Source: Chiloscyllium plagiosum (taxonomy: Eukaryota). From it: DNA of 64,000 nucleotides. This document shows positions 1,817-64,000 of the stretch, in pieces. The translations under genes were made by a program, and so were the position numbers. The notes under the pieces were generated by a model. The model made no database searches. It was not told the origin of the DNA and saw only the letters and a list, made by a program, of their open reading frames with translations. Position 1 is the first letter of the stretch. Each line of letters starts with the position of its first letter. Location: positions 39,736,579 through 39,800,578 of the forward strand of contig NC_057718.1 of the NCBI RefSeq assembly GCF_004010195.1. The letters run 5' to 3'.

Positions 1817-3557
1817 GGGTGCCACAGTGGCTCAGTAGTTAGCACTGCTGCCTCACAGTGCCAGGGACCCAGGTACGATTCCACTCTTGGGCGACTGTGT
1901 GGAGTTTGTATTCTCCCTGTGTCTGTGTGGTTTTCCTCTTTTTCCTCCAGTTTCCTCCCACAGTCCAAAGATGTGCAGATTAGGTGGTTTAGCAGTGCTA
2001 AACTGCCCATAGTGTCCAGGGATATGGAGGTTAGGTGAATGAGAGTCAAGATTAGAATGGTGCTGGAAAAGCACAGCAAGTCAGGCAGCATCCGAGGAGC
2101 AGGAAAATCAACATTTCAGACAGGAGCCCTTCTTCAGGAATGAGGCTGGGAGCCTCCGAGGTGGAGAGATATAGGGGAGGGGTGTGGGGCAGGGGAGAAG
2201 ATAGCAAAGAGTGCAATAGTGGATGGAGGTGGGGATAAAGGTGATAGGTCAGAGAGGAGGCTGGAGCGGATAGGTAGGAAGGAAGATTGACAGGTAGGAC
2301 AGGTCATGAGGATGGTGGTGAGCTGGAAGGTTGGAACTGGGGTAAGGTGGGGGGGATGGGAAATGAGGAAACTGGCGAAGTCCACATTGATGCCCTGGGG
2401 TTGAAGTGTTCTGAGGCGGAAGATGAGGCGTTCTTCCTCCAGGTGTTGGGTGGTGAGGGAGTGGCGATGGAGGAGGCCCAGGACCTGCATGTCCTCGGTA
2501 GAGTGGGAGGGGGAGTTGAAGTGGTCGGCCATGGGACGGTGGGGTTAATTGGTGCGGATGTCCCGGAGATGTTCCCTAAAACGCTCTGCGAGAAGGCGTC
2601 CGGTCTCCCCAGTGTAGAGGAGACTGCATCGGGAGCAATGGATACAATAAATGACATTTGTGGAAGTGCAGGTGAAACTCTGATGGATATGGAAGGCTCC
2701 TCTGGGACCTTGGATGGAGGTGAGGGCCTTGGACGGAAGTGAGGAGGGAGATGTGGGCACACCTGTGGTGGCAGGGGAAGGTGCTGGGAGAGGAGGGAGG
2801 GGAGGGTGGGTTTTTGGGGGGGGACCATGAACCTGACGAGGTAATCGCTGAGGGAATGGTCTTTACGGAAAGCCGGTAGGGGTGGGGAGGGAAATGTCGG
2901 TGGATGATGCGACTTATGCGGAGGTGGAGTGGAAGGTATGGTGGGATGGAAGGTGAGGACTGGGGGGGTTCTGTCCTTGTTACAGTTGGAGGGTGAGGGA
3001 CGTGGATGAGATGCATTGGAGGGCATCTTTAACCATGTGGGAGGGGACATTACAGTCTTTAATTAGTGTGTTTTGTGGTGGAACATGTCCTCCTGAGAGC
3101 AGATATGGCGGAGGCAGAGGAATTGTGTATAAGGGAAAGCATTTTTGCAGGAGGTAGGGTGGGAGGAGGTGTAATCCAGGTAGCTGTGGGAGTCAGTGGG
3201 TTTCGTCGTTGATGGAGATGGAGGGGTCCAGGAAAGGGAGGGAGGTGTCTGAGATGGTCCAGGTGAATTTATGCTCGGGGTGGAATGTGTTGGCGAAGTT
3301 GATGAACTGCTCAACCTCCTCGTGGGAGCACGAGGTGGCGCCGATGCAGTTATCAATGTAGCGAAGGAAGAGGTGGGGAGTGGTGTCGGTGTAACTACAG
3401 AAGGTGGACTGTACTACGTAGCATAGCATCTGCAGTCCTCACTTTCATCTCGGCTAGGTGAATTAGCCATGGGAAAATGCAGGGTTACAGGGACAGCATG
3501 GGATGCATGCTGGGTCAGAATGGACTTGATGGGCCAAATGGCCTGCTTCCATGCTAT
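1817..3557 (+). mobile_element. HE1/V-SINE-type tRNA-derived SINE, split by a Penelope-like insertion (parts 1817-2040 and 3452-3557)
   Basis: A-box tggctcagtagttag, B-box-like ggtacgattcc, V-domain gtttcctcccacagtccaaagatgtgcag; the SINE resumes after the insert with a CR1-like tail. Confidence 0.85.
2041..3451 (-). mobile_element. Penelope-like retroelement (Neptune-like), 5'-truncated and frameshifted: RT C-terminus, GIY-YIG endonuclease, 3' terminal repeat
   Basis: LRYIDNCIG...LPFLD (RT), KPTDSHSYLDYTSSHP (thumb), FTCTSTNVIYCIHCSRCSLLYTGETGRLLAERFREHL (GIY-YIG); near-perfect TSD gg(t/c)taggtgaat at 2029-2040 and 3452-3463. Confidence 0.9.
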
Positions 3558-4120
3558 GATATTGAGGAAAAGAGAATGCAGTTTTCTACAACATTGTTGA
3601 CATATTTTCTTCCAAGAACAGAAGCGTTATGGAATGAAGTGTTAAATGACTGACCAAGATATGAGCCTCCACTTTGGATCTTCATTTTTAAGTGATGTGG
3701 GCTAATTAAATGTTCTGCACTGTAGCGATTCAACAATTCTATTAACATGTACCTAAATGCTTATGCATTGTAATCATTAGTAAGTTTTATCTGTTCAGAA
3801 TCAATCAAGGGTAAATCTGTTAGATTTATGAAACAGTAATGGAACAGAATACTAAATGAGTAAGTAGTACAGAGATAATTTTGGGTGTTAACTCGGTGAA
3901 AACATCAAATGCTAGTTTTTCAATGTAAGCTGGGTATAAAAACACAAAACAAATAAACCTGGCAGAAAGACAGTGCAAAGTGCTTTGAGACAAACAAGTG
4001 AACCAAATCAACTCTTTTTTTCATAATATAGCAGTTAGGCCCAGTACGGCTCACTGCAGCACTGCACACTCAAAGTTGAAATGTGCAATATTACTTTACG
4101 TGTTTGAATGTCATCCCCAC

Positions 4121-4274
4121 CATGATCACTAAACCGCCGCTGTTTCTGATTCGCTGATATACTGCGCTGGACCTTCGAATGTGCCGGAGACTGCGTGGAA
4201 CTGTTGTTGAGGTCACTATTGGGTCGAGACCTATGACACAGGTTACTACTGGATACAGATTCGCTGCCTTCAAA
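4121..4274 (-). CDS. MARK1: MARK1 exon (154 nt), spacer: [51 protein letters not shown]
   Basis: Acceptor cttccag, donor CATG|gtgggg; lies within ORF 4035..4298. Confidence 0.93.
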
Positions 4275-61124: not shown

Positions 61125-61163
61125 AGCTCTGAAGAAGAGTCATGTGGACTCGAAACATTAGCT
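61125..61163 (+). ncRNA. Putative minimal hammerhead ribozyme in a PLE-end fragment (61125-61222)
   Basis: AGCT-CTGAAGA-A-GAGTC-ATGTG-GACTC-GAAA-CATT-AGCT: 4-bp helix I, 5-bp helix II. Confidence 0.6.
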
Positions 61164-62914
61164 TGCTCTCTCTCTATGGATGCTGTCTGACCTGTTGTGA
61201 TTTTCAGCATTTGCTCTTTGCGGAATTTTTTTTAGTGCCCATGTTTTAGAAAAAAAATTCATGAATGTGACATGGGTTTCTTTGTCTGGTCCCCAGTTGC
61301 CCTTAGAAGATGGTGACAAGCTGCCTTTTGAATTGCTGCTGTTCATTTGGTCTGGTGCCCCACAATGCTGTTAGAGAGGGAGTTGTAGGTTTCTCTCCCA
61401 CACTGAAGGAAGAGTGATAGATTGCCAAGTCAGGATGGTAAGTGGCTTGGAGGGGGACCTTGTAATGGTAATACCACGTATCTGTTGCTCGCCCTTCGGG
61501 GTAGAAGTGGTCGTGGGTTTGGACATGATTTGGCATTTATAAGCACTCAATACGTGGCGGCAGTGGGTGAACTCGCCCCGAAGTTCCAAATGGCCGAGGA
61601 AATTTCACTCATGGGGGAAGCCAATGGAGAAAGGTTACCCCCTTAAAGAGAATGGTAGGGAATGATGAGACACTGATCCTCCAATCACAGGTTGGTTTTG
61701 TCCCATGCTCAGGGTGCCTTGGCTGCAAAAAAGGGCCTTCTGCCGGATTGGTAATTCTGCCGGTTGGACAGCCATGGGGTTGTCTGCCAGAGGAACATGT
61801 GGATGAGGAGGCAGCTGCAAGGAGGTTTGAGGAAGGAAGAAGAGGTGGTAATAGGGAGTAGCAGCAAGAATCTGGAAGGTGGGCATGGGGTGGGGATGGA
61901 AAATGTGGGGGAGGAAAATGTGTGGAAGGAGGAGCCAGCTAGGAGTTAGGGGAGAAGAAAGAGGCTGAAAGAGGTCTGTGGAGGTGAAGTTGGATGGGGG
62001 ATGGAAAAGGAAGGGGGGGGGGTGGTTTAGAGAATCAAGAGACAGAGAATGATCATGGTGGGGGGTTTGTCCTGAAGCTGCTCTTATTTGATAAGAAAGA
62101 TTTTCACAAGAACTCAAGCTTCATGTCTCTATTAATCTTACTCTTCTATTCATTTCTACTCTGTGCTCATCACTTTTTCTCCACTCTTTTGTCTTTTTGA
62201 CAGAGGCCCAACGCAAAGTATAAAAAATATTCCAACACTTTTTCATCAGTAAAGTGACGGAGGGGTAATCAACAGTGCTATCAAGCAGCACCTGTTCAGC
62301 AATAACCTGCTCAGTGACTCCCAGTTTAGGTTCCGCCAGGGTCACTCAGCTCCTGACCTCATTATGGCCTTGGTTCAAAACATGGACAAAAAGAGCTGAA
62401 TTCAAGAGGTGAGAGTGACAGCGACATCCCTTGAGATCAAAGCTGCGTTTGACTGAGTGTGGCATCAAGGAGCCCTAACAAAACTGGAATCAATGGGTAT
62501 TAGGGGACAAACTCTCCGGTGACTGGAATCATACCTAACACACAGCAAGATGGTCTTGGTTGTTGTCATCTCAGCTCCTGGACATCTTGGCAAGAGTTTC
62601 TCAGGGTGGCTTCCTAAGCTCACCACCTTCAACTGCTTCATTAATGACCTTCCCTCCATAAAGGTCAGTAGTGGGAATGTCCATAATGTTCAGTGCCATT
62701 CGCAATTCCTCAGATACTGAAACAATTCATGTACAAATGCAACAAGATCTGGACAACATCCAGGTTTGGGCCGAAAAGTGGCAAACAACATTCAGCCTTC
62801 AAAAATGCCTGACAATGACCATCTTCAATAAGAGACATCTAACCACCTCCTCTGTCATTTAATTGTGTTGCTATCATTGAATCATCCACTAACAACACTC
62901 TGGGGGTTACCATT

Positions 62915-64000
62915 ACAGTGATACAGAATAGAAACATATTCTTCGGTCCAACTCATCCATGCCAAGCAGGTTCCCCAAACTAAACTAGTCCCACTCACCT
63001 GTGTTTGACCCACATCCCTCTAACCTTTCCTATTCATGCACCTGTCCAAATGTCTTTTAAGTATTGCAGCTGTATCTGCACTTACCAGTTCATCTGGCAA
63101 TTCGCTCACCACCCTCTGTGTGAAAAGGTTGATCCTCAGGTCCCTTTTAAATATTTCCCCTCTCACCTTAAACATATGCCTTCTTGTTTGGACTCCCCTA
63201 CCCTAGGGGAAATACCTTGGCTATTCACCTTATCCATGCCTCTAATGATTTTATAAACCTGGATGTAGGTTTGTTCACTGAGGTGGAAAGTTCATTTTCA
63301 GAAGTTTCATCAACATACAAGGTTACATCTTCAGTGAGCCGCCAGACGAATCACTGCTGATGATTCCTTCTTTCTATTTATATGTTTGGGTTTCTTTGGG
63401 CTGGTGATGTAATTTCCTGATCTTTTTCTCAGGGAGTGGTAAATGGGATCCAAGTCAATGTGTTTGTTGAAAGAGTTTCGGTTGGAATGCCATGCTTCTA
63501 GGAGTTCTGATGCATCTTTCTGTTTGGCTTGACTTAGGATAGATATGTTGTCCCAGTCAAAGTGGTGTCCTTCCTTACCTGTCTGTAAGGATACTAGTGA
63601 GAGAGGGTCATGTCGTTTTGTAGCTAGTTGGTGTTCATGTATCTTGGTGGCTAGTTTTCTGCCTGTTTGTCCAATGTAGTGTTTGTTACAGTTCTTGCAC
63701 GGTATTTTGTAAATTAGTTTTGCTTGTTGTCTGTATACGGTTTTTCAAGTTCATTAGTTGCTGTTTTAGTATATTAGTGGGCGACCATGATTCCAGCAAG
63801 CAAACCCACATCCAGAACCTCAATCCGAGCTATAAATTTTCTCAAAACTTGCTAATTTTATAAACCTCTACAAGGTCACCTCTCAACTTCCAATGCTCCA
63901 AAGTAAACTGTCCCAGCTTATCCAGCCTCTCCTTACAACTCAAATCTTCGAGTCAGGTAACATCCTTGAACCCTTTTCTGTATCCTTTCCAGTTTAATAA
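62915..64000 (-). mobile_element. CR1 LINE 3' fragment (runs off the window), split by a PLE
   Basis: Similar to 1215-1710. Confidence 0.8.
63261..63854 (-). mobile_element. Poseidon-like PLE fragment with an inverted terminal piece
   Basis: Reverse-complement homologue of 35960-36478; 13-bp TSD attttataaacct at 63248-63260 and 63855-63867; degenerate hammerhead at about 63297-63338. Confidence 0.87.

What the first reader, a model, noticed from the sequence alone, without database searches (positions are those of the whole stretch)
2100..63340. Dense dispersal of minimal hammerhead-ribozyme motifs from at least three Penelope-end families through MARK1 introns
Seen: the pattern CTGA(T/A)GA-N-stem-loop-GAAA-NNTH recurs, intact or decayed, at about 2108(-), 17250(-), 18311(+), 24793(-), 26486(-), 26521(+), 33695(-), 33726(+), 36401(+), 40480(-), 40608(+), 44400(-), 49506(-), 50285(+), 53542(+), 57401(-), 61129(+) and 63300(-). 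Stem II differs in sequence between families (GGGC/GCCC, GGAGC/GCTCC, GTTACC/GGTGAC, GAGTC/GACTC) while pairing and the core are kept. Helix III is a 4-nt palindrome (ACGT or AGCT; ACAT in several copies, probably CpG decay). Established: PLE terminal repeats encode minimal type I hammerheads thought to cleave as dimers. Inference: this genome carries a very high-copy, multi-family ribozyme-bearing repeat load (roughly one motif per 3-4 kb here) that is normally left unannotated.
Basis: partly seen in the sequence, partly recalled or inferred. Interest (0 to 1): 0.75.

Follow-up and report, generated by a model that had tools for sequence, protein, structure and literature searches.

The report
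Fossil Penelope hammerheads in shark MARK1
The introns of this shark gene hold about twenty tiny hammerhead-ribozyme motifs that are cut-off ends of Penelope-type jumping genes, a known kind; nearly all are decayed and the two intact ones are predicted to fold shut, so they likely do not cut the host RNA.

Summary
All 18 listed motifs are present. A strict descriptor finds 10, against 0.12±0.32 in shuffles. I parsed 21 motifs from 16 insertions. Two families lie directly behind clear Penelope-like (PLE) RT/GIY-YIG remnants: A (Neptune type) and C (Poseidon type). A missed family E lies behind a weaker third remnant. Family B has PLE anatomy but no ORF link. The gene is MARK1 on the minus strand, in a shark. 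This is the known minimal PLE hammerhead (PMC4209133). Only 2 of 21 copies keep every element, both inside fold-back palindromes where helix II is predicted not to form. Intact cores show no strand bias, no same-strand tandem pair exists, and RNA reads show no end pile-up at the cut site (a weak test). Most family-A copies begin 3-4 nt before the core, likely the start of the element's RNA. So this is a dense load of uncut run-off stubs, not of working ribozymes. The scan has found this many times in this genome and other sharks.

The parts
4107..26952 (-). MARK1 coding exons (kinase domain, UBA, start of spacer); host gene, transcribed on the minus strand
   Evidence: tblastn of shark MARK1/MARK3 proteins; Pfam Pkinase
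2040..3420 (-). 5'-truncated Neptune-type PLE: RT end, linker, GIY-YIG (3420-2392, broken), 3' UTR, family-A hammerhead (C3 2137, predicted cut after 2110; ATGT), short tail
   Evidence: tblastn with P0132/P0133, E 2e-90; sequence; parse
3425..3451 (+). inverted long-tail piece of the same insertion; 9-nt flanking repeat at 2032 and 3455
13419..13523 (+).
17151..17279 (-). family-A stub, sense to MARK1, about 250 nt into the intron after the 17604-17533 exon; ACAT, no contiguous helix I
18307..18434 (+). family-A stub starting at the -4 position (ATTC), inserted in a CR1 fragment; C3 mutated
24738..24846 (.). family-B head-to-head insertion; hammerhead C3 24821(-), first helix II pair broken, helix I 5' strand absent
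24964..25103 (.).
26442..26642 (.). family-B fold-back insertion, 12-nt target duplication; 26514(-) is a complete motif sense to MARK1; 26519(+) is clipped at the core
   Evidence: tblastn E 9e-5 to P0127
33675..33849 (.). A-subfamily fold-back insertion (stem II GAGC type); motifs 33722(-) and 33726(+), both decayed
35962..36474 (+). Poseidon-type PLE 3' fragment: GIY-YIG 35962-36323, family-C hammerhead C3 36401 (4-bp helix I, 6-bp helix II, ACAT), tail
40424..40719 (.). family-B head-to-head insertion with upstream sequence including a TATAAA box; motifs 40501(-) and 40598(+), both decayed
44344..44427 (-). decayed family-A stub
45392..45549 (.). A-related palindrome, 13-nt target duplication; both arms lack helix II/III (internal deletion)
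47416..47517 (.). family-A head-to-head insertion whose right arm starts 2-3 nt before the predicted cut; sits in the 3' region of an old Neptune-type remnant (46716-47171)
49411..50376 (.). one family-A head-to-head insertion across an N gap (10-nt target duplication); motifs 49535(-) and 50285(+)
53423..53630 (.). family-A fold-back insertion, 13-nt target duplication; 53542(+) is complete (2-bp helix I) but antisense to MARK1; 53547(-) is clipped
54020..54131 (+). family-A insertion in which a short GIY-YIG coding piece is fused to the tail and the hammerhead is gone; 12-nt target duplication
57339..57479 (.). family-A head-to-head insertion, 14-nt target duplication; motif 57428(-) without helix I 5' strand
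61125..61215 (+). family-D stub (GAGTC/GACTC; tail homologous to A); C3 61129, 4-bp helix I, ACAT
63261..63829 (-). second Poseidon-type PLE 3' fragment: GIY-YIG 63829-63340, decayed family-C hammerhead C3 63334
   Evidence: Pfam GIY-YIG E 0.0095, below the curated cut-off; P0121 70% identity

Best explanation
The motifs are the minimal hammerheads of Penelope-like retroelement ends, left as 5'-truncated, mostly decayed insertions in shark MARK1 introns; most were likely made by reverse transcription that started in the element's 'tail' and ran off the front of an uncut element RNA, and in the host pre-mRNA they are likely inert. Shown: the motif, its excess over chance, the link of families A and C (and more weakly E) to PLE ORFs, the inverted arms, one-sided tails and target duplications, and the decay of 19 of 21 copies. 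Inferred, in four steps. (1) The element RNA starts at an initiator-like site a few bases before the hammerhead core (A at -4 in family A). (2) The PLE protein primes inside that RNA about 80-130 nt downstream, at two sites giving short and long tails, as shown in vitro for the anole Poseidon element. (3) cDNA runs through the uncut hammerhead either to the RNA's 5' end, giving 90-130-nt stubs, or on a read-through RNA into the upstream ORF, giving the longer fragments; two such cDNAs joined head-to-head give the palindromes. (4) A lone copy has no helix III and needs a partner or protein help; after insertion, CpG decay destroys the palindrome and stems.
For: Excess over shuffles: 10 vs 0.12. 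ORF links: Neptune-type remnant before 2137 (E 2e-90), Poseidon-type before 36401 and 63334 (E 2e-61), third type before 32851 (E 9e-5). A Stegostoma PLE protein reads through the family-C motif. Compensatory stem-II changes between families that share a tail: GGGC/GCCC to GAGC/GCTC, and GGGTC/GACC to GAGTC/GACTC, read from decayed copies. Among the 40 listed variant rows for family A, three fall in loop II, one at N7 and one at C11.1 (a CpG site), none in the fixed core letters; 11 rows were not shown. In 11 of 11 two-armed insertions only one arm has the long tail, read by eye from the printed ends. A flanking repeat of at least 8 nt was found in 10 of 18 intervals, one of them an uninformative CT microsatellite. 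Summed contig depth rises about threefold across 50275-50292, with loose-end piles at 50281/50282. The consensus letter just before 50281 is G in runs X1 and X15, where long copies have C, as expected for a copied cap. All parsed copies run on past the predicted cut, and none starts exactly at it. Inertness: 2 of 21 complete, both with P(helix II)=0.00 in their palindromes; core-intact copies 8 sense vs 5 antisense to MARK1, p=0.58. Literature: a monomer showed no cleavage and dimers low cleavage (PMC4209133); hammerhead mutants do not affect insertion, uncut RNA is the main template, and RT starts internally at two sites that define the tail (PMC11167929).
Against: Family B has no ORF link in the window, and my searches for one were blank. 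Family A's helix I is only 2 contiguous pairs, so its founder ribozyme may be poor even as a dimer. The extra G rests on a consensus letter in 2 of 3 informative runs, with low overall agreement (0.33-0.37); run X21 shows T, and per-position counts were not given. One arm (47450) starts 2-3 nt from the cut site, and four contigs join the -4 start to position 50314 on opposite strands, which a cleaved template could also explain. The strand test has little power (n=13). No genome was held, so nothing was counted on an assembly. The automatic long-tail flag was too loose for family A (7 false double positives).
Confidence: 0.8

Rival explanations
1. The stubs are independent non-autonomous elements (SINE- or retrozyme-like) with their own short transcripts or circles, mobilised in trans by PLE proteins, rather than run-off products of the long element RNA.
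For: About two-thirds of family-A depth begins at one position just before the core. Both arms of 45392-45549 share an internal deletion of the hammerhead, so a deleted template was copied. Animal retrozymes are proposed to be PLE derivatives, and one chondrichthyan carries them (10.64898/2026.07.22.740005). A few contigs may hold tandem 36-nt units (table 5c).
Against: Stubs lack the upstream TATA-like region that long copies carry, so they hold no promoter of their own. There are no tandem arrays in the window. Lengths form a continuum from about 30 nt to 1.4 kb within one family. Retrozymes carry canonical hammerheads in tandem units (PMC7229834, passages).
Confidence: 0.1
2. A fraction of the intronic copies are working ribozymes: pairs meet in trans through the 4-nt palindrome, or the PLE protein helps them fold, and they cut host pre-mRNAs such as MARK1.
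For: A complete, sense-oriented family-B motif lies about 370 nt past a MARK1 exon (26514). Family RNA is present in nuclei or cells on both orientations (1,765 reads laid from run X21). The anole PLE hammerhead cleaves when the PLE protein is added (PMC11167929). The copy number is very large, so even rare activity would touch many genes.
Against: Both complete copies are predicted to be locked in hairpins of about 75-85 bp. 19 of 21 are decayed. No sense depletion is seen. No place with many molecule ends was reported in the RNA reads (fragmented single-cell poly(A) reads, a weak test). A 4-nt intermolecular helix is very weak (own knowledge).
Confidence: 0.07
3. The founder elements' hammerheads are vestigial: the motif is kept for another reason (promoter or initiator, start codon, protein-binding stem) and never cleaved usefully even in the active element.
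For: Family A's helix I is marginal, and its mismatch changes from U.U to C.C in a subfamily rather than becoming a pair. An ATG lies inside the core, in frame with an open stretch in family C, as in the anole element (sequence; PMC11167929). Cleavage is dispensable for insertion in vitro.
Against: Five families with unrelated stems keep the full catalytic core, G10.1-C11.1 (less clear in E), a palindromic helix III and, in B, C, D, A3 and E, 3-6 bp of helix I. Published PLE motifs with a 2-bp helix I exist (Culex, Oikopleura, D. virilis; supplement of PMC4209133).
Confidence: 0.15
4. The motif is a chance pattern in repeat-rich DNA.
For: A loose descriptor finds 10 hits per shuffled window. 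Rfam finds no hammerhead.
Against: The strict descriptor gives 10 vs a maximum of 1 in 100 shuffles. The copies share family tails and sit behind PLE ORFs.
Confidence: 0.01

Closest known systems
Minimal type I hammerheads (min-HHR) in pLTRs of metazoan Penelope-like elements (Cervera and De la Pena 2014, PMC4209133; parts 1-2 of 4 of the main text and part 2 of 3 of supplement 2 read)
   Same: Same consensus (CUGANGAH, G-C first pair of helix II, GAAAN, palindromic 15.2-16.2, NUH, helix I of 2-6 bp). Many families per genome, mostly single motifs of truncated PLEs, and pairs on opposite strands 100-700 bp apart.
   Different: No shark is in their alignment or searched supplement text (supplement file 1 was not searchable). 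Local density here (1 strict hit per 6.3 kb) would far exceed their 4,000 (coelacanth) and 9,000 (Xenopus) per genome if it held genome-wide; the descriptors differ. Family A's helix I is at the weak end of their range.
Endonuclease-positive PLEs, Neptune and Penelope/Poseidon clades (Craig et al., 10.1101/2021.04.23.441226, passages; Arkhipova et al. 2013, PMC3846280, passages)
   Same: RT followed by C-terminal GIY-YIG. Linker Zn-finger in A's relatives (Neptune), none in C's (Poseidon). Heavy 5' truncation, inverted 5'-truncated arm, 30-40-nt tail at one end only, target duplications, TATA plus initiator in the pLTR.
   Different: No full-length or tandem copy in the window; most insertions are only 90-250 nt. 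The clade call rests on the linker motif and best hits, not on a tree.
Poseidon element of Anolis carolinensis (Frangieh et al. 2024, PMC11167929; parts 1-2 of 4 read)
   Same: Hammerhead about 110-130 nt ahead of the tail end, two tail lengths, ATG at the start of stem II (family C), inserted copies from uncut RNA, no RNA-seq ends at the cut site.
   Different: That element was assayed and its hammerhead is protein-assisted. Nothing here was assayed, and families A, B, D and E are other lineages.
Animal non-LTR retrozymes (PMC7229834, passages; 10.64898/2026.07.22.740005, parts 1-2 of 5)
   Same: High-copy type I hammerhead repeats related to PLE pLTRs; present in one chondrichthyan.
   Different: Retrozymes are head-to-tail tandem units with canonical hammerheads that give circular RNA. 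The copies here are dispersed, minimal and head-to-head.

Membership tests
PLE minimal type I hammerhead | Core CUGANGA ... GAAA ... UH | tested here: met
   13 of 21 parsed copies keep all three; family-A majority letters intact
PLE minimal type I hammerhead | Extra nucleotide between 9 and 10.1; G10.1-C11.1; helix II | tested here: met
   Families A-D: 4-6 bp, with compensatory changes between tail-sharing families. Family E has no extra nucleotide and only about 2 bp
PLE minimal type I hammerhead | Palindromic helix III (15.1-16.1) allowing dimers | tested here: met
   ACGT 4 and AGCT 3 of 21; ACAT 7 and ATGT 2 fit CpG decay. ACGT is the family-A majority. Family E likely has a 6-nt palindrome (one contig consensus)
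PLE minimal type I hammerhead | Helix I pairing | tested here: inconclusive
   B 3 bp, C 4, D 4, A3 6; E 4 from loose-end consensus. Dominant family A only 2 contiguous plus 1 after a U.U mismatch; the published range includes 2 bp
PLE minimal type I hammerhead | Lies in the pLTR of a PLE | tested here: met
   A and C behind clear ORF remnants, E behind a weak one; D by shared tail with A; B by anatomy only
PLE minimal type I hammerhead | Self-cleavage as dimer or with protein help | not testable with these tools
   No assay possible; the RNA lay showed no end pile-up but cannot test this well
EN+ Penelope-like element | RT with C-terminal GIY-YIG endonuclease | tested here: met
   Broken remnants match P0121-P0133, which carry RVT_1 and GIY-YIG hits, mostly below curated cut-offs
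EN+ Penelope-like element | Inverted 5'-truncated arm, one-sided tail, target duplication | tested here: met
   11 of 11 two-armed insertions have a one-sided long tail (read by eye); repeats of at least 8 nt in 10 of 18 intervals
EN+ Penelope-like element | Clade (Neptune: linker Zn-finger; Poseidon: none) | tested here: met
   P0132 has C-x4-CxxC before the endonuclease, partly deleted in the window copy; P0121, P0123 and P0126 lack it (criterion). No tree was built
EN+ Penelope-like element | ORF link for family B | tested here: inconclusive
   None in the window; metagenome pattern scan 0 hits; peptide search gave one unrelated repeat protein
Non-LTR retrozyme | Head-to-tail tandem units, each with a canonical hammerhead | tested here: not met
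   No tandem hammerhead units in the window; motifs are minimal
Conserved single-copy intronic hammerheads of amniotes (recalled; only the reference title seen) | Canonical motif able to fold alone, single-copy, conserved | tested here: not met
   Multi-copy, decaying, no helix III stem, no Rfam match

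The most novel reading that the evidence does not exclude
Sharks carry the largest minimal-hammerhead load yet seen (perhaps 10^5-10^6 copies). Because the families share short palindromic dimer faces and PLE proteins can assist cleavage, the minority of intact, non-palindromic sense copies could cut host pre-mRNAs in trans when a PLE is expressed, a retroelement-triggered layer of intron cleavage.
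Probability: 0.07. Interest if true: 0.7.

Novelty: new member of a known kind. Interest (0 to 1): 0.25.

Why it matters
The kind is published; this adds shark families and a high density. Its use is practical. Many thousands of dated stubs would map where PLE transcripts start and where reverse transcription begins, and would allow a well-powered test of whether PLE hammerheads ever act on host RNA (sense versus antisense counts of intact copies in introns). That question is still open in vivo. This single window points to inert relics.

Tried and rejected
No whole genome was held, so there is no assembly-wide count. Rfam at E up to 10 found no hammerhead family; the miRNA hits are the fold-back palindromes and simple repeats. 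The loose descriptor did not separate from shuffles (20 vs 10.3). Two further loose hits at 12700(-), 35234(+) and one at 60652(+) were dropped: they have no family tail, and 35234 lies in CR1 RT coding sequence. Offsets for 24821 and 25015 were wrong and corrected; the count of complete copies did not change. ORF link for family B: the metagenome pattern scan found 0 stretches; the peptide search of 1.84 billion proteins found one unrelated repetitive protein; blastx of A, B, D and E ends against 13 PLE-related proteins was blank, only C matched. Pfam on seven window PLE peptides gave one sub-threshold GIY-YIG hit. Sequencing-run search: no RNA holder listed. Run X22 laid 0 reads and is no test; family E drew 1 RNA read. 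Summed contig depth (5.6-6.4 million over the family-A core against 3.7 for the single-locus contig) is not a copy number and is used only for order of magnitude. The automatic tail flag was unreliable for family A. Lunse et al. 2017 (dimer cleavage) was not available and is known only through a review passage (PMC6765202). No shark hammerhead count was found in searches, and no cap-G report for PLEs in the listing of one search; these cover only the held library, and bioRxiv supplements were closed.

Full report
Observation. All 18 listed motifs are in the sequence. A strict descriptor gives 10 hits against 0.12±0.32 in 100 local dinucleotide shuffles, maximum 1; a loose one gives 20 against 10.3 and is uninformative. 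With family tails as a guide I parsed 21 motifs, 1 per 3.0 kb of 63,282 called bases. They come from 16 insertions, since five insertions carry an inverted pair. Four further family members have the motif deleted or clipped (13421, 45487, 47450, 54041). Rfam has no model that catches them.

Host. The kinase exon at 11643-11407 is MARK-type. Shark MARK1 proteins match exons from 26952 down to 4107 on the minus strand; the UBA-region exon is 100% identical to white-shark MARK1 and 57-63% to MARK3/MARK2. Exons 1-3 and the late exons were not found, so the stretch above 26952 is intron by inference. The named best relatives of the repeat ORFs are from Stegostoma, Chiloscyllium and Hemiscyllium, pointing to a carpet shark.

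Families and PLE link. Family A (GGGC/GCCC, 12 of 21 copies) at 2137 lies behind a broken RT-linker-GIY-YIG region (3420-2392; E 2e-90), whose relative P0132 has the linker Zn-finger that marks Neptune. Family C (36401, 63334) lies behind GIY-YIG remnants 48-70% identical to a Stegostoma protein without that finger, the Poseidon type; that protein even reads through the motif. D (61129) and A3 (25015) share A's tail and show compensatory stem-II changes. Its loose-end consensus keeps the core and gives about 4 bp of helix I with a very short helix II, and it is far rarer: 164 contigs against 37,985 for A in the same run, on stretches of 201 and 261 nt at 80% and 85% likeness. Family B (GGAGC/GCTCC, 5 copies) has PLE anatomy, but I found no ORF for it.

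Anatomy of insertions. Eleven insertions have two head-to-head arms; in all 11 only one arm has the long tail. I read this by eye from the printed ends because the automatic flag was too loose for family A. Flanking repeats of at least 8 nt were found for 10 of 18 intervals, one of them a microsatellite. This is the published PLE layout (PMC3846280 and 10.1101/2021.04.23.441226, passages). Every parsed copy continues past the predicted cut. None starts exactly at it; one arm starts 2-3 nt before it. Across a DNA run, family-A depth triples just before the core, with loose ends piled at 50281/50282, an initiator-like TCATT; the letter before 50281 is G in the consensus of runs X1 and X15 but T in X21, where long copies have C. 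The cap reading of this G was a lead from earlier scan notes and is only partly tested here.

Could they cut? Thirteen of 21 keep the core, GAAA and UH; 5 also keep the palindrome; 2 also keep helices I and II (26514-, 53542+). Both lie in near-perfect fold-backs where ViennaRNA gives helix II probability 0.00, and 53542 is antisense to MARK1. No same-strand tandem partner exists in the window. Core-intact copies are 8 sense and 5 antisense to MARK1 (p=0.58), so no depletion is seen, with little power. Single-cell RNA reads (1,765 laid from about 2% of run X21) cover the family in both orientations with no pile-up of ends, a weak test.

Mechanism. Shown: identity, anatomy, decay. Inferred: PLE RNA starts just ahead of the hammerhead; the PLE protein primes in the tail at two sites, as measured for the anole Poseidon element, where uncut RNA is the main template and the hammerhead needs protein and is dispensable for insertion (PMC11167929). 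cDNA runs through the motif to the RNA's front or into the upstream ORF, and two cDNAs joined head-to-head make the palindromes. Lone copies lack helix III; the published monomer showed no cleavage and dimers little (PMC4209133). They then decay, fastest at CpG.

Against this reading: a few contigs join the -4 start to the region of the cut site (tables 5 and 5c), which cleaved templates or rare tandem units could explain; a hammerhead-deleted template was still copied (45392-45549), which also fits non-autonomous derivatives; and nothing was counted on an assembly.

Known or new. Minimal hammerheads at PLE ends, in many families and thousands of dispersed single copies, were described in 2014, including about 4,000 in coelacanth and about 9,000 in Xenopus. 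A section heading of PMC7229834 gives up to 120,000 for axolotl (heading cut off in the listing). I found no shark count in searches, or in the searchable supplement; a 2026 preprint lists tandem retrozymes in one chondrichthyan. The local density suggests a load one to two orders above the 2014 figures, but that extrapolates one window and uses another descriptor. The scan itself holds 708 notes with these words in at least 34 genomes, several from this genome with the same reading; these are unchecked and not independent support. Verdict: real, a new member of a known kind, likely inert; interest 0.25.

Noticed in passing
family-A tails, e.g. window 50335-50366: The tail holds a branch-point-like CTGAC, a pyrimidine run and CAG, resembling a 3' splice site; six copies lie sense to MARK1 and could be cryptic acceptors. 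Not scored or tested.
   Followed up: no
family-B tails, 24821(-), 40501(-), 40598(+): AATAAA lies about 10 nt after the predicted cut (AATTAAA in the 26514/26519 pair), and a TATAAA box lies about 35 nt before the core at 40501; possible promoter and poly(A) signals of the pLTR.
   Followed up: no
table 5c, positions 50312 to 50281/50282: Four contig rows (depth 21-62) join the predicted cut position to the stub start with 4-6 letters between. If head-to-tail these are tandem 36-nt hammerhead units, the only dimer-ready layout seen; the table gives no orientation.
   Followed up: no
window 33722/33726 versus main family A: The helix I mismatch changes from U.U to C.C together on both sides, behaving as a direct repeat rather than a pair.
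   Followed up: partly
proteins P0122, P0128, P0129, P0131: Annotated isoforms of MAP3K7, CUEDC2, WBP2-like and ZSWIM7 in related sharks contain family-C GIY-YIG sequence: exonised PLE remnants or annotation artefacts.
   Followed up: no
window 54020-54131: A 24-nt piece of GIY-YIG coding sequence is fused directly to the tail inside a 12-nt target duplication, suggesting a template jump during reverse transcription.
   Followed up: partly
window 46716-47590: An old Neptune-type remnant whose own hammerhead end was not found; a younger family-A palindrome sits in its CT microsatellite.
   Followed up: partly
window 1810-2030, 5820-6020, 24345-24660, 38410-38500, 54480-54785; and 30850-31450, 34000-35920, 36480-36740, 48650-49120, 54970-55400, 58420-59110: A dispersed SINE-like family (resembles shark HE1; name recalled) and CR1/L2-type LINE fragments with RT coding remnants (name recalled); several PLE stubs are inserted into them.
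   Followed up: no
window 27415-27635, 35926-35960, 49662-50135: Assembly gaps (718 N in all); one lies in the centre of the 49411-50376 inverted insertion and one at the CR1/PLE junction before 35962.
   Followed up: no
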